Sequence record: MN342151.1
Source of the DNA: Escherichia phage vB_EcoM_3HA14
Direction: 5' to 3' (one strand)
Length of the DNA stretch: 64,000 bases
Below the pieces are notes generated by a model. That model was not told the DNA's origin and ran no database searches. It saw nothing but the letters and a program-made list of their open reading frames with translations. Below, one piece after another: positions 3,684 through 40,989 of this stretch; position 1 is the stretch's first letter; each line of letters starts with the position of its first letter. The translations under genes and the position numbers were made by a program.

Positions 3684-4213
3684 GTGAAAAAAGGTTATTC
3701 AAAGAGTCCTACAGTAATCTGAAGATGGGTTATCAAGGCTACTCAATACCTTGGTATGAAGATAAGAAAAAACAGTATTCAAACCCTTTTATATATCAAC
3801 CTGTAAAACTCTCTGTACTGGAGTTTTGGCATGAAACTGGAGCTACGCCATACCAATTTGACAACATGGAATATGCGCGTATTTGTAAAAGTCTTGGTGC
3901 AAGACAAGTTGATAATATCATTGAACATTTGAAGGATTTGTATAAAGATTTTGCTGGATACTTATACGAGAAACAGTTTGGGGAGTGCTTAAAATACCCA
4001 GATGGGTCACTTGTTCTGCTCTCATACATGTCTAATGGTAACATAAAAATTGCATACAAAGACCTGTGTGATAACTACTATGATTTTTATACTAGATTGA
4101 GACTACCATACCCAGATAGCTCCTTTTCCTTATCTAGCAATGCAATGACGCACTCTGGGAATATTGTTTCTGTTGAAAAATTAAAAAAGACGTGGGAGAA
4201 GAAAAATAAATGA
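3674..4213 (+). CDS. hypothetical protein (179 aa)
   Basis: Long ORF; start overlaps the previous stop. Confidence 0.45.
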   Translation: MAMSEKRLFKESYSNLKMGYQGYSIPWYEDKKKQYSNPFIYQPVKLSVLEFWHETGATPYQFDNMEYARICKSLGARQVDNIIEHLKDLYKDFAGYLYEKQFGECLKYPDGSLVLLSYMSNGNIKIAYKDLCDNYYDFYTRLRLPYPDSSFSLSSNAMTHSGNIVSVEKLKKTWEKKNK

Positions 4214-5310
4214 CAATTCTGTACAAACAAAATAAAGATGGTTCTTTCAACGTCTGGTCATGTGTTGCTGTAGGTGATAAAGTCGTCACAACTTATGGTA
4301 AAGAAAATGGCAAGATGATGTTTGAAGAGTACACAGCAGAGCCAAAGAACATCGGTAAGAAGAATGAGCGTAATGCTGAACAGCAAGCTCTTTTTGAAGT
4401 TGCTGCTAAGTACAAGAAGCAGGTTGACCGTAAAGGGTATGCTTACACAAAATCTGAAGCAGAGAATGTTGAAAAGGTTGGTGTACAGCTTGCTCAGGAT
4501 GCTTCCAAGATAAGTCACAAGAAGTATCTGGTATTTCCTGCCGATGCTCAACCTAAACTTGATGGGGTTCGTTGCAGGATTTCAAGAGATGCTGACTCAG
4601 AAAGTTTTACGGCATATTCTCGTGAGAACACGGTATACAACATTCCTGTAGAGTTGATTCCTGATGTTCTTCTTATGCTGAAACTGCACAAAGATGTTGA
4701 AGATTTCGATGGTGAGATTTATGCTCATGGTTGGGACTTGGAAGATATTGTATCTATGATTAAGAATGCTGACAATCCAGACCGTCACCTTCTTAAATTC
4801 TACTGGTATGATATCTGTGACAAGACTAAATCTTGGCCTGAGCGTCGTGAAGTTATTGATAATTCACCAATCGTTGAACTCGGTGATGCTTGCAGGGTTG
4901 TACCTGTTCAGACAATCCGTGTTAACTCTTGGGAAGAATTTGATAATGCTCATGACAACTGGGTTAAACTCAAGTTTGAAGGGGCAATGTATCGGTCAAT
5001 CTCACCAGATTCGTTCTATGAGTGTGGTCATCGCTCTTACTTCCTGATTAAGCACAAGAAGATGCACACACAGGAATTTAAAGTAACGGGTGTAAAGACT
5101 GATAAACGTGGTCATGGTAAGTTCGTTGTAGAGACTCTTCCTAACGTCTTTGTAGATGTTTCATGGAAAACTACACACGAGAAGAAAAAGTATCTTGCTG
5201 AACATCCTGAAGAGTTTATCGGGAAGCCTTTAACGGTTCAGTTCCAGAAGATGACTCGTAAGGGTTCTTTACAGTTCCCTGTTGGGCTAGTAATTCGAGA
5301 CTATGAATAG
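4210..5310 (+). CDS. ATP-dependent DNA ligase
   Basis: Adenylation motif I KxDG present as PKLDGVRC; size (366 aa) fits compact phage ligases. Confidence 0.8.
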   Translation: MTILYKQNKDGSFNVWSCVAVGDKVVTTYGKENGKMMFEEYTAEPKNIGKKNERNAEQQALFEVAAKYKKQVDRKGYAYTKSEAENVEKVGVQLAQDASKISHKKYLVFPADAQPKLDGVRCRISRDADSESFTAYSRENTVYNIPVELIPDVLLMLKLHKDVEDFDGEIYAHGWDLEDIVSMIKNADNPDRHLLKFYWYDICDKTKSWPERREVIDNSPIVELGDACRVVPVQTIRVNSWEEFDNAHDNWVKLKFEGAMYRSISPDSFYECGHRSYFLIKHKKMHTQEFKVTGVKTDKRGHGKFVVETLPNVFVDVSWKTTHEKKKYLAEHPEEFIGKPLTVQFQKMTRKGSLQFPVGLVIRDYE

Positions 5311-33541: not shown

Positions 33542-33617
33542 TGGAGTATCGGAAGGGACTCGAACCCTCATAAACCTGTTTTGCAGACAGGCACATAACC
33601 ATTTCTGACACCGACAC
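33542..33617 (-). tRNA. tRNA-Cys (GCA)
   Basis: Manual fold: acceptor GTGTCGG/CCGATAC, anticodon arm CCTGT-CTGCAAA-ACAGG, T-arm GAGGG-TTCGAGT-CCCTT, CCA encoded. Confidence 0.75.
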
Positions 33618-33623
33618 ATAATT

Positions 33624-33716
33624 TGGAGGAAGATACCAGACTTGAACTGGTACGCCGATTTCTCGGTTACTGGCAGTTTAGCAAACTGCTCCCTTACCTT
33701 TTAGGGTTAATCTTCC
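33624..33716 (-). tRNA. tRNA-Ser (GCT), long variable arm
   Basis: 93 nt; acceptor GGAAGAT/ATCTTCC perfect; anticodon loop TTGCTAA; long variable arm; T-loop TTCAAGT. Confidence 0.75.
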
Positions 33717-33717
33717 A

Positions 33718-34452
33718 TTATTTGTTCAGAGCTTCTTTCATCTCTGGAGTTGCGATAGTATCAATCACACCAGTTTTACATGAATCATCAAACCAGCTTG
33801 GTAGAACATTCGCAAGGAAACCATTAATATTTGTTTTCAGATATTCTGCAATCAGTGCTGCTTCATCTGCAATCATCTGAGTTACTTCGTTAGCATATGC
33901 AGTAATCTTTGCAATACCCTCATTAATCGCTGTAACGGCCTGTGTAGCGAGTTCAGAGATTGTATCTAGTCCTTGGTCGATTGCATCTTGCAAATCGCTT
34001 AGAACGCCATTTACAGCGTCTATGGAGGTATTAATCAAATCCATCGCTTTATTACCGTACTCGGTAGCTACGCCCATGATACCGCTAAACGGTGTACATC
34101 CAACCTGTTCACCTGCTGCTCCCATAACGTTAGAGTAACCTTTAGCTACTTGCATACGTTGTGAAAACTCATCTACAGACTTTTGTCCATACTCAGTAAG
34201 TGTACTTGTCGTTGAAGTTGTACTTCCAAGGCTTGTTGTGAAGCTTCCTAATAAGGCTGTTGTCAGTCCAGCAGCAACTAAAATCTGTTGTGTAGCTGGG
34301 TCTGTTACAGAACTAATTGAGTTAACTAATGATTGAGAGGCAGCTATAGTACCACCAAGAACTGCTGCACCAGTAATAAGAGGGTTTGAAAAACCATTAC
34401 CAGTTTTAAGGAGATTAAAAATCTCTTTACTTTGTTCTGTCATCTCTTTCAT
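33718..34452 (-). CDS. hypothetical Ala/Thr/Ser-rich protein (244 aa) within tRNA cluster
   Basis: ORF-track start (GTG at 34515) would run through a tRNA-Phe; ATG at 34452 has a GGTG RBS and avoids the tRNA. Confidence 0.5.
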   Translation of the reverse strand: MKEMTEQSKEIFNLLKTGNGFSNPLITGAAVLGGTIAASQSLVNSISSVTDPATQQILVAAGLTTALLGSFTTSLGSTTSTTSTLTEYGQKSVDEFSQRMQVAKGYSNVMGAAGEQVGCTPFSGIMGVATEYGNKAMDLINTSIDAVNGVLSDLQDAIDQGLDTISELATQAVTAINEGIAKITAYANEVTQMIADEAALIAEYLKTNINGFLANVLPSWFDDSCKTGVIDTIATPEMKEALNK

Positions 34453-34468
34453 TATGCACCTATAAAGT

Positions 34469-34545
34469 TGGTAGCCCATCGGGATTTGAACCCTGTTCTC
34501 ATGTTTTTCAGACACGCGCTTTAACCATATAAGCTAATTGAGCTA
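34469..34545 (-). tRNA. tRNA-Phe (GAA), atypical acceptor/D spacing
   Basis: Anticodon arm CGTGT-CTGAAAA-ACATG; D-arm GCTT-ATATGGTTA-AAGC; T-loop TTCAAAT; acceptor pairs only with a 1-2 nt offset and T-stem is weak. Confidence 0.55.
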
Positions 34546-34551
34546 TTAAAT

Positions 34552-34628
34552 TGGGGTGACCTACGGGAATCGAACCCGTATAGACCATGTTCACAGCATG
34601 GGTCATTATCCATTTATGATAAGGCCAC
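34552..34628 (-). tRNA. tRNA-His (GTG)
   Basis: Anticodon arm CCATG-CTGTGAA-CATGG; D-arm TCAT/ATGA; acceptor GTGGCCT/AGGTCAC; CCA encoded. Confidence 0.75.
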
Positions 34629-34659
34629 ATTTAAGGACTCTCGTAAGAATCCTTAGAAG

Positions 34660-34735
34660 TGGCAGCAGTATAAGGATTTGAACCTTAATCTTTCAGCTTC
34701 AGAGGCTGGAGCATTGCCAGTTATGCTATACTGCT
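34660..34735 (-). tRNA. tRNA-Gln (CTG)
   Basis: 76 nt; anticodon loop CTCTGAA; D-arm GCAT/ATGC; acceptor AGCAGTA/TACTGCT perfect. Confidence 0.7.
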
Positions 34736-34741
34736 AATATT

Positions 34742-34820
34742 TGGTACTCCATATCGGATTCGAACCGATACATAACACAGATTTTAAATCTGGCCTCTCT
34801 GCCAATTGGAGTAATGGAGC
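34742..34820 (-). tRNA. tRNA with Leu anticodon (TAA) but short variable arm
   Basis: Anticodon loop TTTAAAA; D-loop AATTGGCAGAG (Leu-like); variable region about 7 nt; discriminator A; T-arm ATCGG-TTCGAAT-CCGAT. Confidence 0.6.
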
Positions 34821-34822
34821 AT

Positions 34823-34898
34823 TGGCGGGGGATGATGGAATTGAACCATCTTCTTCGATTTCAAAGACCGAGGTTTTAACCTTGTAAACTAATCCCCT
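34823..34898 (-). tRNA. tRNA-Gln (TTG)
   Basis: Anticodon arm TCGGT-CTTTGAA-ATCGA; D-arm GTTT/AAAC; position 1:72 mismatched. Confidence 0.65.
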
Positions 34899-35124
34899 AA
34901 CGAACTCTTGAAAGAATATATGCGTTATTGCAAGTATCCTTATTTTCAGGTAGTGATGTTTCGAAGATAACTTGCTTAAGTTCTAATCCAGCAAAGTTAT
35001 AAACAACCTTTCTAACTTCTAACGGGTCACATTGCCAACCAACCGCTATAAAGAAAGTATCTCCAAATCTACCTGTTTCAATCTTGTGGTCATCTTTATG
35101 TTTTTCAACTATGAGTTTATACAT
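34897..35124 (-). CDS. hypothetical protein (75 aa) between tRNA genes
   Basis: ORF fills the gap between two tRNAs. Confidence 0.35.
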   Translation of the reverse strand: MYKLIVEKHKDDHKIETGRFGDTFFIAVGWQCDPLEVRKVVYNFAGLELKQVIFETSLPENKDTCNNAYILSRVR

Positions 35125-35142
35125 AATGTTACCTATTAAATT

Positions 35143-35219
35143 TGGTGCAGAATAGAGGATTCGAACCCCTAACTAACAACTTCGTAGGTTGCTGCTCTGT
35201 CCATTTGAACTAATTCTGC
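35143..35219 (-). tRNA. tRNA-Arg (ACG)
   Basis: Acceptor GCAGAAT/ATTCTGC perfect; anticodon arm GCAAC-CTACGAA-GTTGT. Confidence 0.75.
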
Positions 35220-35381
35220 AATATCCTTTTGAGATTCCTGTCTAGCTCTCTTCTTATCTCTTCTGAGAAAGCGTTTACGATGGTCTGTACGCCATTTGTA
35301 ATAATCTTCTTCACCATCATGCGCTGCACAGCAGCCACAACTTGCAATTTCAACTTTACCATGTCTACCATAAGGCTTCAT
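35169..35381 (-). CDS. hypothetical Cys-rich basic protein (70 aa)
   Basis: ORF whose 3' 51 nt overlap tRNA-Arg; CxC plus basic KRxRR-like segment. May be real or chance. Confidence 0.3.
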   Translation of the reverse strand: MKPYGRHGKVEIASCGCCAAHDGEEDYYKWRTDHRKRFLRRDKKRARQESQKDIAELVQMDRAATYEVVS

Positions 35382-35397
35382 AGGAATCTCCTAAAAT

Positions 35398-35475
35398 TGG
35401 TGTTCCAAGACGGATTCGAACCGTCACTAATACAAGGTTTGAGCTTGCATCCTCTGCCAATTGGGATACTGGAAC
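35398..35475 (-). tRNA. tRNA with Leu anticodon (CAA) but short variable arm
   Basis: Anticodon arm GCAAG-CTCAAAC-CTTGT; D-loop AATTGGCAGAG; variable region about 6 nt; discriminator A. Confidence 0.6.
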
Positions 35476-35476
35476 T

Positions 35477-35551
35477 TGGTACTCGCTGAAGGACTTGAAC
35501 CTTCTTCACCAACTTGTAAGGATGGGGCTTTACCATATAAACTAAGCGAGC
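35477..35551 (-). tRNA. tRNA-Val (TAC)
   Basis: Anticodon loop CTTACAA; T-arm GAAGG-TTCAAGT-CCTTC; separated by 1 nt from the neighbouring tRNA. Confidence 0.7.
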
Positions 35552-35646
35552 TTTGAAGAGGTCTGAAGCTGTGCCGCTAACTCAACTCCGTGGAATTTGT
35601 TACGGTCTTCAGTTGACTCAAGCGGTCTTTCACTTGACCTCAAAAT

Positions 35647-35723
35647 TGGTGCTGCTCACAGGACTCGAACCTGCATCTCCATCCTTACAAGGGATGTGCA
35701 ATAGCCAATTATACGAAAGCAGC
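35647..35723 (-). tRNA. tRNA-Thr (TGT)
   Basis: Anticodon arm CATCC-CTTGTAA-GGATG perfect; T-loop TTCGAGT. Confidence 0.75.
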
Positions 35724-35729
35724 ATTATT

Positions 35730-35804
35730 TGGAGCATCCAGAGGGAATCGAACCCTCAACCTCAGTTTGGAAGACTGTAATTTTCCCATTTAAACTATGG
35801 ATGC
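35730..35804 (-). tRNA. tRNA-Gly (TCC)
   Basis: Acceptor GCATCCA/TGGATGC perfect; anticodon loop CTTCCAA. Confidence 0.75.
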
Positions 35805-35810
35805 ACTAAT

Positions 35811-35886
35811 TGGTGGAGAAGCAGGGAATTGAACCCTGTACTTAAGTTTGCAAAACTTATGTTTTAACCATGTAAACTACATCCCC
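35811..35886 (-). tRNA. tRNA-Ala (TGC)
   Basis: Anticodon arm TAAGT-TTTGCAA-ACTTA perfect; D-arm GTTT/AAAC; G3:U70 wobble (Ala identity element) present. Confidence 0.8.
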
Positions 35887-35892
35887 ATTGTT

Positions 35893-35968
35893 TGGTACAG
35901 GTGGAGGGAATTGAACCCATCGTCTTACTGATTAAGAGTCAGCCGCATAACCATTTTGCTACACCTGC
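35893..35968 (-). tRNA. tRNA-Lys (CTT)
   Basis: Anticodon arm GCTGA-CTCTTAA-TCAGT; T-stem only 3 bp (GGG/CCC). Confidence 0.6.
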
Positions 35969-35975
35969 ATTAATT

Positions 35976-36052
35976 TGGTACACCTAGAGAGATTCGAACT
36001 CACACTGAGCAGATTCTAAGTCTGCTGCCTCTTCCAATTGGGCTATAGGTGC
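35976..36052 (-). tRNA. tRNA with Leu anticodon (TAG) but short variable arm
   Basis: 77 nt; anticodon arm GCAGA-CTTAGAA-TCTGC perfect; D-loop AATTGGAAGAG; 5-nt variable loop; discriminator A. Confidence 0.65.
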
Positions 36053-36305
36053 ATTAAATCTTTGTAGAGAACTGCTAAGACGCCAAAGCAACAATGGTAT
36101 CAAATGCCTTAACAATTCTCTAAAAAGACCTATTGGCCTCTGCATAGTCTTGCTTAATCCGGTGACTAGAACCTTTGGAGAGCTTGATACTATCTCTTCT
36201 CCGTGACACCTACTAGGTGCTTTACCAGTGCCGTGTACGCCAATACACGAAGAGGAAACCTGAAACACTTGCTCGAACAAATAGTCTCAGCTTTAAATCT
36301 TATTA

Positions 36306-36395
36306 GGCGGTAGATAAAGGAGTCGAACCCTCACCGTATCTCTACAATGGCAACTGTTTTCAAGACAGTTTGGCTTCCATTAGCCGCTACCTACC
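36306..36395 (-). tRNA. tRNA-Ser (TGA), long variable arm
   Basis: About 90 nt; anticodon arm ACTGT-CTTGAAA-ACAGT; long variable arm; 3' CC encoded but not the terminal A. Confidence 0.7.
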
Positions 36396-36408
36396 CCTAA
36401 TAAGACTT

Positions 36409-36491
36409 TGGCATGGGACGGAGGATTCGAACCCCTTTGAGTAAGTTTTGGAGGCTTACGCACATGCCTTAGTGTCTTAACATCGTCCCAT
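36409..36491 (-). tRNA. atypical tRNA-like gene, possibly tRNA-Trp (CCA)
   Basis: Perfect 7-bp acceptor ATGGGAC/GTCCCAT and T-arm. Anticodon stem GTAAG/CTTAC encloses a 9-nt loop CCTCCAAAA (CCA anticodon if the closing pair is unpaired); D region about 8 nt longer than canonical. Confidence 0.5.
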
Positions 36492-36656
36492 ACTATATTT
36501 CGAAGCTTACCCTGTTATCTCAACACTGTCAAGCTTCTTCTCAGATTATTTACATGTTCTGGAAAACATGAGATACAGACCACCTCCTTATGAGATTGAC
36601 TCTTTCAAGTCAATGCGGAGACCCATAAAGGTCGTCATAGTAATCTGCTAACTAAT

Positions 36657-36724
36657 TGGCAGTCAAGGTAGGAGTCGAACCTACTTACTATTAAAGGGAG
36701 CTACCCTTCAGCAACTATCCGACT
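36657..36724 (-). tRNA. tRNA-like element (truncated or non-canonical)
   Basis: Canonical T-arm GTAGG-TTCGACT-CCTAC and CCA end, but only about 68 nt to the best acceptor match; no convincing anticodon arm. Confidence 0.35.
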
Positions 36725-36785
36725 TTCGTTTATCTCTTAACGCGTATCCAAGATAACTTACTCGTGTTGTCTTGACCATTAAAAT

Positions 36786-36862
36786 TGGCACACCCTACAG
36801 GATTCGAACCTGTAACTGACGGTTTAGAAGACCGTTGCTCTATCCGTTTGAACTAAGGGTGC
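36786..36862 (-). tRNA. tRNA-Arg (TCT)
   Basis: Anticodon arm ACGGT-CTTCTAA-ACCGT perfect; T-arm ACAGG-TTCGAAT-CCTGT. Confidence 0.75.
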
Positions 36863-37066
36863 ATTATCTTTAAAGGCTCTCTTAGAAAACCCTTAAAGAT
36901 GCCCACTTTATTAATCATACCGTGGGCTAGTACGCCAAATTCTTTAACAGGGAGTTGGAATACCCTGCTGGTGTTTAGCCTATTAAGCTACTGCCAGAAA
37001 AACATTATCGTTTGCATTTATTTTTAAGTTTTTAAAATAGACGCTACGCTAACGAAAACTAAGGTT

Positions 37067-37095
37067 ATCTTAAAGTGGTCACATCTAAATGTCAA
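37067..37095 (-). promoter_or_regulatory. possible internal sigma70-like promoter in tRNA cluster spacer
   Basis: On - strand: TTGACA (37090-37095), 17-nt spacer, TAAGAT (37067-37072). Confidence 0.3.
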
Positions 37096-37109
37096 CAACT
37101 TTATGAAAT

Positions 37110-37187
37110 TGGTTGTAGGTGAGGGTATCGAACCCTCTTCTAACGGTTATCAGCCGTTTGCATTACCATTTATGCTAACCCACAATT
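37110..37187 (-). tRNA. tRNA-Ile (GAT)
   Basis: Anticodon arm AACGG-CTGATAA-CCGTT perfect; D-arm GCAT/ATGC. Confidence 0.75.
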
Positions 37188-37189
37188 GG

Positions 37190-37266
37190 AGGTTCAGGTG
37201 GGAATCGAACCCACATTCATAGGGCTTATGAAACCCTTGCATTACCTTATCTGCGACTGAACCATT
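37190..37266 (-). tRNA. tRNA-Met (CAT), elongator-like
   Basis: Acceptor GGTTCAG/CTGAACC perfect; anticodon arm AGGGT-TTCATAA-GCCCT; 1:72 paired, so not initiator-like. Confidence 0.7.
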
Positions 37267-37344
37267 ATAAGTTGCCCCTTTGTAGAGAACTGATTGAGTG
37301 GGTGTTTCCAGCCGCGCATGTGTTCTTCAGTTAAGGGGCGAATT

Positions 37345-37421
37345 TGGTAGAAGTGGAGGGATTCGAACCCGTCGCCTGTCAGATTAAAAGTCTGCCGCAT
37401 CACCATTCTGCTACACTTCCA
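37345..37421 (-). tRNA. tRNA-Lys (TTT)
   Basis: Anticodon region GCAGA-CTTTTAA-TCTGA; weak T-stem like the CTT isoacceptor. Confidence 0.65.
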
Positions 37422-37606
37422 TTAAATCATCTTTGCAGTAACCTACGCAAACCTTGCTAAAGGGTTTGTAGAGTCATCTCTTATAAGCTAATCTAGAATC
37501 ATGCTCAAGAGACTCTTCGGCACTCATGGGACGACTGGTTAGCTCCATAAGTCACTGCAAAGAGGATTACCAGACCGTATTTATCTTAAGTGCTTCCATT
37601 ACACCA

Positions 37607-37643
37607 ACACGCCGTAACGTGTGAAGGAATCGAACCTTCGCCT
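37607..37643 (-). ncRNA. orphan T-arm-like hairpin with adjacent stem-loop (tRNA-like module without acceptor or anticodon)
   Basis: Sense strand GAAGG-TTCGATT-CCTTC followed by ACACG-TTACGG-CGTGT; no pairing acceptor found within 100 nt. Confidence 0.3.
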
Positions 37644-37844
37644 TTTCTTTACCAGAGAAATAGATTGTTTATTGTTTGCTGTAAACGGTCTTCTGTAAAA
37701 TTGTTGGAACCAGACCAAGTTTTAAATTTTTCAAATTAAATTGGCTTGAAATATTAAAATTGCTTGCTGTATTTGGTCTTCTGCTCCTTTAAAGAATACT
37801 CGTAAGAACTCTTTAAGGGAGGGGCTAAAAAGCCCTCTCAAATT

Positions 37845-37921
37845 TGGCGGTTACGAAGGGATTCGAACCCTCATCATCCTCCGTGACAGGGAGGTATTTT
37901 GACCAGTTAAACTACATAACC
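37845..37921 (-). tRNA. tRNA-Asp (GTC)
   Basis: Anticodon arm CCTCC-CTGTCAC-GGAGG perfect; T-arm GAGGG-TTCGAAT-CCCTT. Confidence 0.75.
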
Positions 37922-37927
37922 TTTATT

Positions 37928-38015
37928 TGGTGCGCCGTGAAGGAGTCGAACCTCCCGAGTCATAATGACAAGTGATTTACAGTCACCACCGCTTCCATCT
38001 ACGGGATAACGACGC
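37928..38015 (-). tRNA. tRNA-Tyr (GTA), long variable arm
   Basis: 88 nt; anticodon arm GGTGA-CTGTAAA-TCACT; variable-arm hairpin TGTCA..TGACT. Confidence 0.7.
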
Positions 38016-38083
38016 ATTTTATTCTATTCAGGCTAAGGACTTGCACCTTACAAATCGGTGAGCAATCGCTTCTCTCCCAAATC

Positions 38084-38161
38084 TTGGCGGTTAGTCAGGG
38101 ATTCGAACCCTGTACCATTCGGTTAACAGCCGACCGCACATGCCTTATGTGCTTCCTAACC
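38084..38161 (-). tRNA. tRNA-Asn (GTT)
   Basis: Anticodon loop CTGTTAA; D-arm GCAC/GTGC; T-arm CAGGG-TTCGAAT-CCCTG. Confidence 0.7.
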
Positions 38162-38245
38162 ATGTTAGTATTACCAGACCGTATCTTTTCATTTTTTGCC
38201 TATAAAAAATTTTAAGTGTTTGCTGTAAACGGCCTTCTGTAAATT

Positions 38246-38322
38246 TGGAGGCGGGTGTAGGAGTCGAACCTACCGATAACATGCTAATGAGACATGTGAG
38301 ACACCCTTTCTCTATACCCGCA
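38246..38322 (-). tRNA. tRNA with CAT anticodon (Met or Ile2), 1:72 mismatch
   Basis: Anticodon arm CATGT-CTCATTA-GCATG; first acceptor pair unpaired (T:C). Confidence 0.6.
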
Positions 38323-38409
38323 ATTCTTAATGACCAGACCAAATCTTTTTTGGATTTCTATGCGCGAAATTGAAAAGTTTGTTTGCTGTAATTGGTCTTC
38401 TGTCAAAAC

Positions 38410-38487
38410 TGGCATTCCCGAAGGGACTTGAACCCTCAAACCACACCTTGAAAGGGTGTTGACTTTACCTAATTTGTCTACGGGAAT
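38410..38487 (-). tRNA. tRNA-Glu (TTC)
   Basis: Acceptor ATTCCCG/CGGGAAT perfect; anticodon arm ACACC-CTTTCAA-GGTGT perfect. Confidence 0.75.
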
Positions 38488-38493
38488 ATAATT

Positions 38494-38573
38494 TGGTCTC
38501 CGTTGAAGGATTTGAACCTTCGACCCCTTGCTCCCAAAGCAAGTGCTGCTAAACCAAACTGAGCTAAACGGAG
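38494..38573 (-). tRNA. tRNA-Pro (TGG)
   Basis: Acceptor CTCCGTT/AACGGAG perfect; anticodon arm CTTGC-TTTGGGA-GCAAG perfect. Confidence 0.75.
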
Positions 38574-38610
38574 ATAATCTTTTTAACAACCTATGTAACA
38601 ACTATAACAC

Positions 38611-38640
38611 TATTTTTTAGTGTCTGTCAAGAGGTTTTTT
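38611..38640 (-). promoter_or_regulatory. candidate sigma70-like promoter for the tRNA cluster
   Basis: On - strand: TTGACA (38635-38640), 18-nt spacer, TATAGT (38611-38616), about 40 nt upstream of tRNA-Pro. Confidence 0.4.
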
Positions 38641-38738
38641 AAAATAATTTGATTTATTTCAGAAAACTTCTTTTTCGTTTCTATGTAGAACATATTAAAG
38701 GGTATTAAACACTTTGTCAATACCCTTTTTAAAACTTT

Positions 38739-40154
38739 TTACCAATCGTAGCGTTCAACCATTACTGCTTTGAGCATTACGCTGATAGGGTCAAACTTCT
38801 CACCACCAAGCAAAGCTTTTAAAGTGGCTGGAGAGAAACCAGATACCATTGCTACACCGTTATCCTTTACAGACACTTCGCAAGTACCGTTACGGTTTGC
38901 TAAGTACCAGAATACCAGTTGTGGCATCTCATATCCAGCTTTCTTGTACTTTTCTTGAATTGCTTCAAAGTTAGTACGACCATCTGCTCCATCAACCTGA
39001 TTAAACTGCATATCAGAGAAGATGATAAGCTTACTAGGCATCTCTTTCTGAGTCAAGTTGTTTTTAACACCAATCTCAAGGATTCTTGCAAAAGCAGCTT
39101 GTAGGTCAGTTGAACCATACTCTACATGACTCTTCACTTGACGTAAGCGAGTCTGTAAATCACCACTCAATGTGATGAAGTGAGGTCTGCTAGAGTAAAC
39201 CATCAATTCATCTTTAAAGCAACCTGTATTACGTTCTGAAACGTACAGGGCTAAAGATACACCAATGTCTAGCGCTGTAACAGAACCATGTCGCTCCCAA
39301 GTCATAGATGAAGATACATCTGCCATGCACAGAATGTTCTCACCCTCTTTCATCCAGTTTGGTAAAGCTTTCCACTGCTCATTTGCAACGGTTGCATTAC
39401 CATAACCGACTGACTTTGTAATGTCATAAGGGTAGACTGCACCAGCATTAATCTTTGTCTCACCTTTAGTCAGTGCTGCAATGTATGCTGCATAACGCTC
39501 ACCATCTTTACGACTGAAGAGTTTTTGATAACGTGCAGCAGCCAGTGAAGGAAGCTTGCTGTAATCAATCTCTCCGAACTCATTTGCTGAAATCTTTTGT
39601 TCAACAGTATCAGACAGTGCTGACAGAAGAACTCGATACTGCTTCTCTGAAAGATTTGCAAACTTACAGAAACGACGAACAAAACGCATGTGTCGTGATT
39701 TTACTCGTGGTAACCATTTTGCTGCCAGAGCCGATGTTGCAGGGTCTAACAGTGCAGCTTCTAAATGCTTGAAAGCATCTGTTTCGTAACGTGTACCAAC
39801 AAAGATTTTAAAGTCGTCATAACGACCTAAATCAGAAATCTTGTCCATGATACGTAACACTTGGAACTCATCAAGAATCCCGTCAGAGATTGCTTTAGTA
39901 AGAGTATAACGGAACGCTTTACGCTCACCCATACCTTCTCGTGCATCTCGCATATGTAACAGGATTCGAACTGCTACATCAATATCTTCTCGCATTGCCT
40001 TGTAAAACAAGTTTGGAAGAACTTCTACATTTGTTCTGCTTGAACCAGCAGCTTTGTAGAAATCTACCAGTGCAGACATTGAAGAGGTGTGGTTAACAGC
40101 ACCGTTTTCAGTTAAACCTGCATGTAAATGCGAGTGCTTAAATAATTCGCTCAT
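38739..40154 (-). CDS. vWA-domain protein (471 aa), possibly TROVE/Ro60-like
   Basis: C-terminal half has vWA hallmarks: hydrophobic strand then DVSSSM (MIDAS DxSxS) and LIIFSDMQFN; N-terminal about 270 aa helical. Directly upstream of and co-oriented with the tRNA cluster. Confidence 0.55.
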   Translation of the reverse strand: MSELFKHSHLHAGLTENGAVNHTSSMSALVDFYKAAGSSRTNVEVLPNLFYKAMREDIDVAVRILLHMRDAREGMGERKAFRYTLTKAISDGILDEFQVLRIMDKISDLGRYDDFKIFVGTRYETDAFKHLEAALLDPATSALAAKWLPRVKSRHMRFVRRFCKFANLSEKQYRVLLSALSDTVEQKISANEFGEIDYSKLPSLAAARYQKLFSRKDGERYAAYIAALTKGETKINAGAVYPYDITKSVGYGNATVANEQWKALPNWMKEGENILCMADVSSSMTWERHGSVTALDIGVSLALYVSERNTGCFKDELMVYSSRPHFITLSGDLQTRLRQVKSHVEYGSTDLQAAFARILEIGVKNNLTQKEMPSKLIIFSDMQFNQVDGADGRTNFEAIQEKYKKAGYEMPQLVFWYLANRNGTCEVSVKDNGVAMVSGFSPATLKALLGGEKFDPISVMLKAVMVERYDW

Positions 40155-40230
40155 ATTAATTCTCTCTCGTTAGAATGTTTTGGTGAGACAGACTCTAACG
40201 TTTGATTTAGAACCTGTCAACACCTTTTTA

Positions 40231-40599
40231 TTATTTTTTCAGAGTTGCTACAGCAGAGAACGTTGGTTTGTTCTCCTGTGCTCCCTGATTCCCATTATCT
40301 GTAGTCTTTTTGTCTACAGCGATGGCTTTCATCTCACCTGCTGAGTGAGTCATGATAACTTTACCAGCTTCCATCATTGATTTGACTTGGATATCTTTTT
40401 GAGTCAAACCAAACTCAGCAAGCTTTACAGGGTCTCTTGTAACAATGGCCTCAAACAGTTTTGCAGCATACTCTGCTGAGTTATCAATAGTCAACTGTGC
40501 CTTGACCAGTGAACTCTTGTTACGTGAGCCTTTGGGTCTACCTGATGGGTTACCAGATTGACCTTTCTTGAATTGGCCTTTGTTTGTTCGTTTCGTCAT
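40231..40599 (-). CDS. basic DNA-binding-like protein with GNPxGRPKG motif (122 aa)
   Basis: N-terminus KKGQSGNPSGRPKGSRNK; GAGGTG RBS upstream. Confidence 0.45.
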   Translation of the reverse strand: MTKRTNKGQFKKGQSGNPSGRPKGSRNKSSLVKAQLTIDNSAEYAAKLFEAIVTRDPVKLAEFGLTQKDIQVKSMMEAGKVIMTHSAGEMKAIAVDKKTTDNGNQGAQENKPTFSAVATLKK

Positions 40600-40989
40600 T
40601 CTTCACCTCTTTTAAGAACTCTTAAAAGGCTTTTAAGATAAGAGATAGATATCCAGAAAGATATCTGTTTAAATAGCCTTTTTAGAAGAGTCTTTTAAGT
40701 AATCTTCTAAGTATTTATTAGGCTACACGTTGTCAAGAGGAATGTCAAGTAAATTTTTTAGTTGCAATACTTCTTGACTTGTTGTATGGATTACTGTACC
40801 ATCTTACTAAAGCTGTAGGTCTGCCTTTATCTACAAAGGAGACTTAATGAGAAACAATTCAAAATTGAAGACAGGTAATAATACCAATCACTGTAAGGAA
40901 TCAAAGCGGGTAGAATTACTCTATTACAAATCCTCTGAAATTGGTTTGTACCTATACTTTCAAAATTATAGACGACAAGAGGATTATTT

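What the first reader, a model, noticed from the sequence alone, without database searches (positions are those of the whole stretch)
36409..40154. vWA-domain (possibly Ro60/TROVE-like) gene directly upstream of a tRNA cluster that contains non-canonical tRNA-like elements
The 471-aa protein has a C-terminal vWA fold with a MIDAS-like DVSSSM motif and a helical N-terminal half, the same domain order as Ro60/Rsr. Bacterial and phage Ro60 orthologs are typically encoded next to Y RNAs that mimic tRNA. Here the co-oriented cluster has several elements that are tRNA-like but not canonical: an orphan T-arm plus hairpin (37607-37643), a truncated tRNA-like gene (36657-36724), an atypical 83-nt tRNA (36409-36491), and ORF-free spacers of 95-420 nt. 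Together this could be an RNA-surveillance module (Ro60-like protein plus Y-RNA-like partners).
Basis: partly seen in the sequence, partly recalled or inferred. Interest (0 to 1): 0.75.

Follow-up and report, generated by a model that had tools for sequence, protein, structure and literature searches.

The report
Phage Ro60-like protein with partner RNAs
A FelixO1-like phage encodes a distant relative of the RNA-quality-control protein Ro60, and just downstream, between its tRNA genes, sit four copies of an apparently undescribed small RNA family that accompanies this gene in very diverse phages and is probably its RNA partner.

Summary

The main result lies in the spacers. Four paralogous RNAs (E1-E4, 37566-38400, minus strand) share one grammar: AAG, a 6-7 bp terminal stem, the motif UUACAGCAA, a variable insert, then CUG. 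Its insert is a tRNA-like domain in YrlA order (V, T arm, closed acceptor hairpin, D arm), and the hairpin covaries.

A covariance model of the short form gave 71 hits in 911 kb around distant homologs (30-62% identity), all on the gene's strand. A reverse scan from the RNA motif led back to the gene: 20 of 26 complete RNAs had it nearby, against 0 of 57 incomplete matches. Rfam has no matching family; only the Dictyostelium Class I RNA model hits these RNAs, weakly.

The best reading is a divergent Ro60/Y-RNA-type RNP. Binding and function are untested.

The parts
38739..40154 (-). Ro60-like gene, 471 aa: N-terminal helical ring (DUF2828) plus a C-terminal vWA domain (DUF7788) with an intact MIDAS motif
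38332..38400 (-). E1: short partner-RNA candidate (AAG, stem GACCAA/UUGGUC, UUACAGCAA, AU-rich hairpin, CUG), between tRNA-Glu and tRNA-Met
   Evidence: Model R1 scores it 58.6 bits, E 6e-10. It keeps its position in all Ounavirinae loci.
38172..38237 (-). E2: short partner-RNA candidate (stem GGCCGU/ACGGUC), between tRNA-Met and tRNA-Asn
   Evidence: R1 scores it 59.7 bits, E 4e-10. Its outer helix covaries, UUAC:GUAA to UUGC:GCAA, among relatives.
37708..37781 (-). E3: short partner-RNA candidate (stem GACCAA/UUGGUC, motif AUACAGCAA)
   Evidence: R1 scores it 52.5 bits, E 2e-8. It is conserved in all Ounavirinae loci.
37566..37696 (-). E4: long form. It has the same terminal stem and motif, and encloses a tRNA-like domain in YrlA order: V hairpin 37644-37660, T arm 37623-37639, closed acceptor-like hairpin 37607-37622, D arm 37590-37604.
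   Evidence: R1 scores it 43.4 bits. The acceptor-like hairpin has three compensatory versions across relatives, and 97.8% of pair cells are paired against 41-53% in slid controls. Rfam tRNA scores 28.8 bits; the YrlA model gives no hit.
38601..38720 (-). Two sigma-70-like promoters between the gene and the first tRNA. They probably drive the tRNA/E-RNA polycistron.
   Evidence: TTGACA-18-TATAGT matches 11 of 12 positions and has a TG extension. TTGACA-17-TAATAT matches 10 of 12. These are consensus matches only.
33542..38573 (-). Cluster of 26 canonical tRNA genes, co-oriented with the gene. It lacks a called tRNA-Trp.
   Evidence: ARAGORN, Rfam and the Sf17 annotation.
36409..36491 (-). Atypical tRNA-like gene, probably tRNA-Trp(CCA). 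It has an 8-bp acceptor stem plus G plus CCA, and an extra linker before the D stem. The anticodon loop reads Y-U-CCA-A-N and is flanked by a C.A or C.C pair.
   Evidence: It is conserved out to Yersinia phage P778. The anticodon stem has three compensatory versions and the D stem covaries CAC/GUG to CUC/GAG. No Trp tRNA is called in six Ounavirinae genomes. It is not an R1 or Y-like RNA.
36657..36724 (-). Truncated tRNA-like element: acceptor-like stem, a hairpin with a 5-nt loop, T arm, GCCA, no D arm
   Evidence: It occurs only in Mooglevirus and two other loci and is absent from Felixounavirus. No tool calls it. It is probably a tRNA remnant.
36863..37109 (-). Block resembling the mRNA-like domain of tmRNA, with its own promoter (37067-37095) and a tag frame at 36980-37015 encoding ANDNVFLAVA**
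   Evidence: Rfam tmRNA_permuted scores 36.5 bits (GA 47), local E 5e-6. The block is 88-91% conserved even where the protein is 62% identical. Changes in the tag are synonymous or stop-to-stop, and the downstream hairpin covaries. ARAGORN finds no tRNA-like domain here, but calls the same tag in Moogle.

Best explanation
The gene encodes a divergent Ro60-type protein: a helical TROVE-like ring closed by a vWA/MIDAS domain. The four E RNAs are its dedicated partner RNAs, the functional equivalent of Y RNAs.

**Proposed mechanism**

1. Host RNA polymerase transcribes the tRNA cluster from the sigma-70-like promoters just downstream of the gene.
2. RNase P and the tRNA 3'-processing enzymes release the tRNAs. 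This also frees E1-E4 as RNAs of about 60-130 nt.
3. The protein recognises the constant module of each RNA, which is the 6-7 bp terminal stem with its single-stranded UUACAGCAA tail and 3' CUG.
4. The variable module then acts as an effector. In E4 this is a tRNA-like domain with a closed acceptor stem. It could tether or gate the ring, or recruit or inhibit a host factor such as PNPase or a tRNA-binding enzyme. That would tune RNA turnover or quality control during infection.

**Shown by computation**
- the Ro60 fold of the protein
- the structured, covarying RNA family
- its tight, strand-specific, two-way genomic linkage to this gene family across phages of Proteobacteria and Firmicutes
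- YrlA-like tRNA-mimic cores inside the long forms

**Inferred**
- that the RNAs accumulate as separate molecules
- that the protein binds them through the constant module
- any downstream activity
For: **Protein**
- The top nine Foldseek hits are all full-length Ro60 structures.
- The MIDAS residues are invariant.

**RNA family**
- A strict descriptor found 102 hits in 48 of 85 sources and none in five shuffles. Every hit in a distant locus was on the gene's strand.
- Covariance model R1 gave 71 hits at E<=1 in 911 kb, all on the gene's strand and none on the other. Of 68 loci, 37 had a hit at E<0.01, most of them within 600 nt of the gene.
- In the alignment of hits, 99.6% of stem cells pair, against 33-46% in slid controls. 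All 7 pairs show changes on both sides.

**Reverse test**
- I scanned IMG/VR for AAG-N5-TTACAGCAAAC. Of 26 matches that also had the pairing 3' strand plus CTG, 20 had a DUF2828 homolog in the same locus and on the same strand. Of 57 matches without a pairing partner, none did.

**Breadth**
- R1 RNAs lie next to homologs in Bacillus phage Tsamsa, Staphylococcus, Enterococcus and Listeria phages, where the proteins are about 30% identical.

**YrlA link**
- The curated Rfam YrlA model hits the cores of long forms: L084 40.9 bits (E 1e-7 in a local search), L023 35.8, L071 32.9, L160 30.6.
- The window's E4 has the same V, T arm, closed acceptor hairpin and D arm order, and that hairpin covaries.

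**Precedent**
- Canonical Ro60 genes in bacteria and phages have Y RNAs on the same strand within 4 kb (PMC4201824).
- phiLo Ro60 binds two adjacent Yrl RNAs and engages host PNPase (PMC12135203).
- For the Listeria phage homolog CKA15_055, the authors proposed Y RNAs nearby on the basis of HHpred and RNA-seq (PMC12282133; homology confirmed).
Against: - No expression, processing or binding data exist for this phage.
- Pfam's TROVE model does not match the protein. A profile search of PDB sequences gives only E 0.29 to Ro60. Homology therefore rests on a predicted fold.
- The window's E4 is not detected by Rfam YrlA even in a 191-nt search.
- The conserved motif, UUACAGCAA, differs from the GNCGAA/CGAA Ro-binding motif of known Y RNAs.
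- About half of the distant loci show no R1 hit at E<0.01, and Campylobacter phage F368 shows none.
- The covariation counts come partly from sequences that were selected for, or fitted to, the stem.
Confidence: 0.65

Rival explanations
1. The stem-plus-UUACAGCAA elements are cis-acting signals in the operon transcript rather than stable partner RNAs. They could be autoregulatory operator sites for the DUF2828 protein, or processing or stability 'punctuation' for the gene and tRNA transcripts.
For: The elements are always on the gene's strand and usually within a few hundred nt of it, either upstream or downstream. This fits UTR elements. In the window they sit between tRNAs, where processing occurs. 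In Listeria phage CKA15 they lie between a promoter and the gene's ribosome-binding site.
Against: There are up to six tandem copies per locus. Some copies lie 1-8 kb from the gene inside tRNA clusters. The long forms carry elaborate, covarying tRNA-like domains, which is unexpected for an operator or a cleavage signal. The elements also occur in loci with no tRNAs. An autoregulatory reading would still make the RNA a ligand of the protein.
Confidence: 0.17
2. The protein works on canonical tRNAs or tmRNA, for example in quality control, protection from host anticodon nucleases, or repair. The E elements are decayed tRNA derivatives or passenger repeats of tRNA clusters and have no specific relation to it.
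For: 24 of 60 distant loci carry tRNA or tmRNA genes within 6 kb. That is 141 genes, all on the gene's strand. E4 contains tRNA-derived parts, and part of it resembles the D arm of tRNA-Asn. A lineage-restricted tRNA remnant does exist at 36657-36724.
Against: The RNA grammar tracks the gene even where no tRNAs are nearby. The reverse scan gave 20/26 against 0/57. Conservation of the motif and stem with abundant compensatory change across proteins only 30% identical is not what decaying pseudogenes show.
Confidence: 0.1
3. The protein is a vWA-domain virion or assembly component that does not bind RNA, and its resemblance to Ro60 is only a shared architecture.
For: The Listeria homolog CKA15_055 was detected in purified virions at 57% coverage (PMC12282133). 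vWA domains often mediate protein-protein contacts. Sequence-level similarity to Ro60 is marginal.
Confidence: 0.05

Closest known systems
Ro60 (Rsr) with Y RNAs, including YrlA, in bacteria and phages (Deinococcus and Salmonella Rsr; mycobacteriophage Ro60; Thermus phage phiLo Ro60 with Yrl1/Yrl2)
   Same: The protein has the same architecture, a helical ring plus a vWA/MIDAS domain. One or several small RNA genes sit next to the protein gene on the same strand. The RNAs are modular, with a constant terminal stem and a variable insert. In the long forms the insert is a tRNA-like domain in the order V, T arm, closed acceptor hairpin, D arm. The YrlA model detects that domain in relatives.
   Different: The protein belongs to Pfam DUF2828/DUF7788, not TROVE, and is 10-16% identical to Ro60 structures. 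The constant RNA module is a 6-7 bp stem with single-stranded UUACAGCAA and a 3' CUG, not a bulged helix with GNCGAA/CGAA. Most members are short and have no tRNA-like domain. In this phage the RNAs are embedded in a 26-tRNA cluster.
Dictyostelid Class I RNAs (Rfam RF01414)
   Same: The grammar is the same. Class I RNAs start with AAG, have a 6-bp terminal stem with an invariant 5' G, carry the adjacent motif CCUUACAGCAA, have a variable loop, end in CUGU, and are about 42-65 nt long (PMC7919456). The phage RNAs read AAG, G-N5, (U/A)UACAGCAA, variable insert, N5'-C, UG. RF01414 is the only Rfam family that hits them. All ten of its hits coincide with R1 RNAs.
   Different: Scores are 17-31 bits, below the gathering score of 41.5. 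Class I RNAs are eukaryotic, use the DUSE promoter, and are reported to be unique to Dictyostelia. Their known binder is the RRM protein Rnp1A. Whether dictyostelids encode a DUF2828 protein could not be tested. Common descent or a common protein partner is speculation.
tmRNA (for the block 36863-37109 only)
   Same: The resume-codon context and tag frame are tmRNA-like: AUAAAU GCA AAC GAU ... GCU UAA UAG encodes ANDNVFLAVA**. The frame is conserved, with synonymous and stop-to-stop changes. Full tmRNAs whose tags end in ...ELAVA lie near DUF2828 genes in other phages.
   Different: No tRNA-like domain is detectable, and the Rfam score is below threshold. In Moogle, ARAGORN gives only an atypical 749-nt call with the same tag.

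Membership tests
Ro60 / TROVE-vWA proteins | Ring of helical (HEAT-like) repeats closed by a C-terminal vWA domain | tested here: met
Ro60 / TROVE-vWA proteins | Sequence match to the Pfam TROVE model or to Ro60 sequences | tested here: not met
   Pfam gives only DUF7788 and DUF2828. phmmer against PDB sequences finds nothing. A 36-sequence profile gives only E 0.29 to the Ro60 MIDAS region.
Ro60 / TROVE-vWA proteins | Intact MIDAS motif (DxSxS...T...D) | tested here: met
   D279, S281, S283, T349 and D381 are invariant in 36 homologs.
Ro60 / TROVE-vWA proteins | Binds Y RNAs on the outer surface and misfolded RNA ends in the central cavity | not testable with these tools
   This needs EMSA, CLIP or a structure.
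Ro60 / TROVE-vWA proteins | Partner ncRNA gene(s) encoded nearby on the same strand | tested here: met
   E1-E4 lie 340-1170 nt downstream on the same strand. The same linkage is seen in 37 of 68 distant loci and in the reverse scan.
YrlA (Rfam RF02553) | tRNA-like domain in the order V, T arm, closed acceptor-like stem-loop, D arm, enclosed by a 5'/3' stem | tested here: met
   E4 has these parts at 37660-37590. The acceptor-like hairpin has three compensatory versions.
YrlA (Rfam RF02553) | Score at or above the family's gathering threshold (69 bits) | tested here: not met
   The window's E4 gets no hit even at E<=10 in 191 nt. Related long forms score 25.8-40.9 bits.
YrlA (Rfam RF02553) | GNCGAAN0-1G motif in the Ro-binding 5' strand | tested here: not met
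   The conserved 5' module is AAG, stem, UUACAGCAA. There is no GNCGAA.
Dictyostelid Class I RNA (Rfam RF01414) | Short terminal stem with a 5' G, an adjacent CCUUACAGCAA motif, and AAG/CUGU ends | tested here: met
   All four window copies and 66 distinct relatives have a G-N5 stem, the motif (U/A)UACAGCAA (9 of 11 positions), and AAG/CUG ends. The Class I features are taken from PMC7919456.
Dictyostelid Class I RNA (Rfam RF01414) | Score at or above the gathering threshold (41.5 bits) | tested here: not met
   Scores are 17.6-22.2 bits in the window and up to 31.1 bits in relatives.
Dictyostelid Class I RNA (Rfam RF01414) | DUSE promoter and dictyostelid genomic origin | tested here: not met
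   The sequence is a phage genome with sigma-70-type promoters.
tRNA (element 36409-36491) | Recognised by tRNA detectors; canonical 7-bp acceptor stem, 2-nt linker and 7-nt anticodon loop | tested here: not met
   ARAGORN and Rfam do not call it. It has an 8-bp acceptor stem, a linker of about 8 nt, and either a 9-nt loop or a 7-nt loop with a C.A closing pair.
tRNA (element 36409-36491) | Conserved anticodon, covarying stems, encoded CCA end | tested here: met
   The CCA anticodon is invariant. The anticodon and D stems covary, and G plus CCA is encoded. Trp is the one amino acid missing from the called tRNA set.
tmRNA (block 36863-37109) | Tag-encoding mRNA-like domain with a resume codon | tested here: met
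   The frame encoding ANDNVFLAVA** is conserved.
tmRNA (block 36863-37109) | tRNA-like domain: acceptor stem with CCA, plus a T arm | tested here: not met
   ARAGORN makes no tmRNA call in the window, even with relaxed settings. The Rfam score of 36.5 is below the threshold of 47 and borrows the T arm of tRNA-Ile.

The most novel reading that the evidence does not exclude
The phage 'stem + UUACAGCAA' RNAs and the dictyostelid Class I RNAs may be one RNA class. In that case the DUF2828 family would be their conserved protein partner. Papers citing Pfam DUF2828 report the family in plants and in mimivirus-like sequences as well as in phages. That would make Class I RNAs the Y-RNA equivalents of a second, Ro-like RNP lineage shared by phages, giant viruses and eukaryotes. 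It would also give a testable partner and function to an abundant orphan eukaryotic ncRNA class, and to DUF2828 proteins in general.
Probability: 0.15. Interest if true: 0.92.

Novelty: new variant of a known kind. Interest (0 to 1): 0.8.

Why it matters
Ro60/Y-RNA particles are a conserved but poorly understood RNA quality-control system. In bacteria and phages they have been tied to proteins that match the TROVE model and to RNAs with a CGAA-bulged stem.

This locus shows a second, much larger phage lineage of Ro-shaped proteins, with about 8,850 clusters at 50% identity. It appears to have its own dedicated RNA family with a different recognition module.

- The family now has a sequence-and-structure definition, so it can be searched for and mutated.
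- It explains conserved 'empty' spacers in the tRNA clusters of FelixO1-like and many other therapeutic phages.
- For the Listeria phage CKA15 study, it suggests better Y-RNA candidates than the hyper-abundant RNA the authors pointed to, which matches ROOL.
- It raises a concrete hypothesis about the orphan Class I RNAs of social amoebae.

Tried and rejected
- **Sequence searches against solved structures.** phmmer of the protein found nothing. A 36-sequence profile gave only a marginal Ro60 MIDAS hit. Only the structure-based searches were informative.
- **Rfam YrlA on the window's E4.** No hit, even in a 191-nt search.
- **Embedded-tRNA pairing.** I first considered that GGUCUGG upstream of a tRNA pairs with CAGAAGACC downstream of it, which would embed a real tRNA. 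I rejected this because only one of four cases fits, whereas hairpin pairing within each spacer fits all four.
- **E4 as a genuine tRNA-Thr(GGU).** Rejected. The acceptor stem has two mismatches and no CCA. In relatives the anticodon-like loop loses U33 or shrinks to 6 nt, and in Moogle and Michonne it is replaced.
- **tRNA-dimer artefacts.** Several T-arm/hairpin/D-arm descriptor hits were junctions of two annotated tRNAs (L042, L051, L060, L071, L075). I discounted them.
- **CKA15_059-061.** I tested whether the hyper-abundant Listeria phage RNAs are members of the new family. They are not. In the sibling phage cka8, a ROOL match (86.7 bits) lies just downstream of tRNA-Pro, the position CKA15_059-061 hold in CKA15.
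- **AlphaFold-database fold search.** Intended to look for eukaryotic DUF2828 proteins, but the library was unavailable.
- **Literature.** Avesson 2011 and the Sim 2020 review are not held. Searches for DUF2828 and for the motif string found nothing relevant.

Full report
**1. Context.** The window is a FelixO1-like myovirus of the genus Mooglevirus (Ounavirinae). Region 36000-40600 is 98% identical to Shigella phage Sf17, and 303 phage records share it. ORF 38739..40154 (-) encodes 471 aa. ARAGORN finds 26 tRNA genes at 33542-38573, all on the minus strand, so they lie downstream of the gene and are co-oriented with it. RefSeq already names the gene 'RNA-binding protein', and it falls in PHROG 850.

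**2. The protein.**
- Pfam places it in DUF7788 (residues 275-455, 5.9e-44) and DUF2828 (residues 171-269, 5.6e-27). It does not match TROVE.
- Sequence searches against PDB chains are essentially negative. A 36-sequence profile gives only E 0.29 to the MIDAS region of Ro60.
- An AlphaFold2 model built on that alignment is confident, with pLDDT 90 and pTM 0.89.
- The nine best Foldseek hits are all Ro60 structures aligned over their full length. The best is 9KOP (E 1.3e-8), the Ro60 of Thermus phage phiLo. Hits covering only the vWA domain follow at E>1e-3.
- The MIDAS residues D279, S281, S283, T349 and D381 are invariant. So are many Arg and Lys residues in the helical half.
- The family is large. 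It has 8,850 clusters at 50% identity with E<=1e-3 and occurs in 709 phage records. Hosts include Escherichia, Salmonella, Vibrio, Aeromonas, Campylobacter, Listeria, Staphylococcus, Enterococcus, Bacillus and Mycobacterium. Some annotators already call it 'Ro-like RNA binding protein'.
- The Ro-like nature of the protein is therefore well supported at fold level, and it is not new as an annotation.

**3. A repeated RNA in the spacers.** Reading the minus strand and running the repeat finder showed four copies of a paired motif: CAGAAGACC-NN-UACAGCAAAC, followed 58-118 nt later by GGUCUGG.
- All four copies fold with the two ends paired.
- The copies differ by compensatory changes, ACCAA:UUGGU against ACCGU:ACGGU.
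- Number and position are conserved in all 15 Ounavirinae loci fetched.
- Among orthologs, the outer helix of E2 covaries, UUAC:GUAA to UUGC:GCAA.

**4. E4 is a YrlA-type tRNA mimic.**
- Across relatives it reads as follows:
  - the 5' stem strand
  - UUACAGCAA
  - a variable V region
  - an invariant T arm
  - a hairpin with three different compensatory sequences (ACACG/CGUGU, ACCCUUC/GAAGGGU, ACUCGGC/GUCGAGU)
  - a D arm (GUGU-AAUGGNA-GCAC)
  - a linker
  - the 3' stem strand
- On the alignment, 97.8% of pair cells are paired, against 41-53% in slid controls. Three pairs of the hairpin change on both sides.
- This is the module order Chen et al. described for YrlA: V, T, closed acceptor-like stem, D (PMC4201824).
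- E4 is not a tRNA. Its acceptor pairing is imperfect, it has no CCA, and its anticodon-like loop decays in relatives.
- Rfam's YrlA model does not detect it.

**5. The RNA family follows the gene across phages.**
- *Descriptor.* I used the pattern G-N5, WWWC[AC]GCAA, 15-170 nt, a perfect complement ending in C, then UG. It found 102 hits in 48 of 85 sources and none in five shuffles. All 42 hits in loci whose protein is 38-62% identical were on the gene's strand and mostly adjacent to the gene.
- *Covariance model.* Model R1, built from 32 short members, gave 71 hits at E<=1 in 911 kb. All were on the gene's strand and none on the other. Of 68 loci, 37 had a hit at E<0.01, including many not used in training. 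In the 64-kb window it hit only E1-E4, at 43-60 bits.
- *Covariation.* In an alignment of 69 hits, 99.6% of stem cells pair (33-46% in slid controls). All 7 pairs change on both sides, and 179 cells are compensatory. These counts lean towards the structure, because the sequences were selected for it or fitted to it.
- *Reverse test.* This test is independent of that bias. I scanned IMG/VR for exact matches to AAG-N5-TTACAGCAAAC and examined the first 80 loci returned. Of 26 matches that also had the pairing 3' strand plus CTG, 20 had a DUF2828 homolog in the same locus, always on the same strand. Of 57 matches without a partner strand, none did.
- *Arrays.* Some loci carry tandem arrays of three to six copies.
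- *Breadth.* R1 RNAs also flank homologs in Bacillus phage Tsamsa, a Staphylococcus phage, Enterococcus phage EFDG1 and Listeria phages cka8 and CKA15. Mycobacteriophage LeBron gives only a weak hit and Campylobacter phage F368 none.

**6. Long forms elsewhere.**
- A structural descriptor for T arm, closed hairpin and D arm found non-tRNA modules next to the gene in L018, L023, L036, L066, L075 and L084.
- The curated YrlA model scores the cores of long R1 RNAs as follows: 40.9 bits in L084 (local E 1e-7), 35.8 in L023, 32.9 in L071 and 30.6 in L160.
- In L084, whose protein is 49% identical, the gene is followed by a promoter and then two short and three long RNAs. All share the terminal stem and the motif.
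- The family is therefore modular: a constant stem-and-motif module joined to a variable insert that is often a tRNA mimic. This is the logic of Y RNAs. The constant module, however, is not the CGAA-bulged helix of known Y RNAs.

**7. Relation to known work.**
- Canonical Ro60 genes in 254 bacteria and 22 phages have YrlA-like RNAs within 4 kb on the same strand (PMC4201824).
- phiLo Ro60 binds two adjacent Yrl RNAs, forms complexes with host PNPase and attenuates it (PMC12135203).
- In Listeria phage CKA15, the homolog CKA15_055 matches Rsr by HHpred, lies 620 bp downstream of the tRNA genes and was found in purified virions. It is 30% identical to the window protein over its full length, E 2e-70.
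  - The CKA15 authors speculated that very abundant nearby ncRNAs are Y RNAs (PMC12282133).
  - I find three R1 RNAs in the unannotated gap immediately upstream of CKA15_055, behind a TTGACA-17-TATCAT promoter.
  - The hyper-abundant RNAs, annotated as the small ORFs CKA15_059-061, lie just downstream of tRNA-Pro. In the sibling phage cka8, Rfam's ROOL model matches the equivalent position at 86.7 bits, E 5e-16.
- I found no description of the stem-plus-UUACAGCAA family in Rfam 15 or in the held literature.

**8. Resemblance to Class I RNAs.** Rfam's Dictyostelium Class I RNA model is the only family that hits these RNAs. It scores 17-22 bits in the window and up to 31 bits elsewhere, against a gathering score of 41.5. 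All ten of its hits coincide with R1 RNAs. Published Class I features are a start at AAG, a 6-bp stem with an invariant 5' G, the adjacent motif CCUUACAGCAA, a variable loop and an end at CUGU (PMC7919456). The phage grammar matches these feature for feature. DUF2828 also occurs in eukaryotes and in mimivirus-like sequences. I could not test whether dictyostelids encode one. This remains a lead, not a finding.

**9.
- *36491..36409.* This element is conserved out to Yersinia phage P778.
  - Its anticodon stem has three compensatory versions, its D stem covaries, and CCA is invariant in a Y-U-CCA-A-N loop.
  - It has an 8-bp acceptor stem followed by G and CCA.
  - No tRNA-Trp is called in any of six Ounavirinae genomes.
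  - It is most likely an unconventional tRNA-Trp that standard detectors miss, not a Y RNA.
- *36724..36657.* This element occurs only in Mooglevirus and two other loci. It is probably a tRNA remnant.

**10. The tmRNA-like block.** The 247-nt spacer 36863-37109 is 88-91% conserved even where the protein is 62% identical. It has its own promoter. It carries the frame GCA AAC GAU AAU GUU UUU CUG GCA GUA GCU UAA UAG, which encodes ANDNVFLAVA**. Changes in that frame are synonymous or stop-to-stop, and the downstream hairpin covaries. No tRNA-like domain is detectable. ARAGORN calls the same tag in Moogle, as that genome's announcement reported (PMC4319497).

**11. Verdict.** The best model is a divergent Ro60-like protein with its own family of Y-RNA-like partners, released from the tRNA polycistron by tRNA processing. 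The fold, the RNA family and their genomic coupling are shown computationally. Binding, biogenesis and function are inferred.

Noticed in passing
window 36863-37109 (-); tag frame 36980-37015; promoter 37067-37095: A highly conserved block resembles the mRNA-like domain of tmRNA. It encodes ANDNVFLAVA** behind its own sigma-70-like promoter but has no detectable tRNA-like domain. ARAGORN calls the same tag in Moogle as an atypical 749-nt tmRNA. Full tmRNAs whose tags end in ...ELAVA lie near DUF2828 genes in other phages (L052, L053, L069, L070).
   Followed up: partly
window 36409-36491 (-): This is probably an unconventional tRNA-Trp(CCA) with an 8-bp acceptor stem, an extra linker and a 9-nt loop (or a C.A closing pair). 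ARAGORN, Rfam and the tRNAscan annotation of Sf17 all miss it. Trp is the only amino acid without a called tRNA in six Ounavirinae genomes.
   Followed up: partly
L205 3421-3972 (Listeria phage cka8); by position equivalent to L206 ~3860-4420 (CKA15): Rfam's ROOL model matches at 86.7 bits, E 5e-16 (GA 99.1), just downstream of tRNA-Pro. In CKA15 the small 'ORFs' CKA15_059-061 hold that position. A 2025 study found them to make up as much as 67% of phage transcripts and proposed them as Y RNAs. They are very probably a ROOL RNA.
   Followed up: partly
window E1-E4 (37566-38400); L084 9534-9670; L160 820-871; L071 1658-1720; L075 3369-3425: Rfam's Dictyostelium Class I RNA model is the only family that hits the new phage RNAs (17-31 bits). 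The published Class I features (AAG start, 6-bp stem with 5' G, CCUUACAGCAA motif, CUGU end) match the phage grammar point for point.
   Followed up: partly
L046 8193-8315: One long family member carries a circularly permuted tRNA inside the terminal stem: acceptor 3' strand, GCCA, loop, acceptor 5' strand, D arm, anticodon-like arm, T arm. In L002/L003, L018 and L036 the closed acceptor hairpin also encodes N-CCA straight after its 7-nt 3' strand. This recalls M. smegmatis YrlA, which is cleaved by RNase P and receives CCA.
   Followed up: no
L084 10213-10288: A 76-nt element resembling the tmRNA tRNA-like domain alone (GGGGUCG...CGACUCCACCA, with G3.U70) follows the Y-like RNA array. Rfam tmRNA scores it 31.6 bits, E 5e-9.
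   Followed up: no
window 37792-37844, 36869-36893, 34630-34654 (-): A hairpin of the type AAGGAYUCUUACGAGAGUCCUU recurs three times. The copy at 37792-37844 follows a GC-rich hairpin (GAGAGGGCU-UUUU-AGCCCCUC) and is 94-100% conserved across Ounavirinae. It may be a terminator or a processing site. It remains unexplained.
   Followed up: no
short family members in L021, L028, L041, L059: Several short RNAs carry a second copy of the core motif (CAAGCAA, ACAGCAAAU or AUUCAGCAAUU) inside the variable loop. This hints at two binding sites per RNA.
   Followed up: no
window 40231-40599 (-): The 122-aa gene immediately upstream (Pfam DUF5681 in relatives, PHROG 4114, N-terminal KGQSGNPSGRPKG motif) keeps its position next to the Ro-like gene in L082 and in Yersinia phage P778. 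It may be a functional partner.
   Followed up: no
L206 5393-6913 (CKA15_055), from PMC12282133: The Listeria phage homolog of the Ro-like protein was detected in purified virions with 20 peptides and 57% coverage. The protein, and perhaps its RNP, may therefore be packaged and delivered with the DNA.
   Followed up: no
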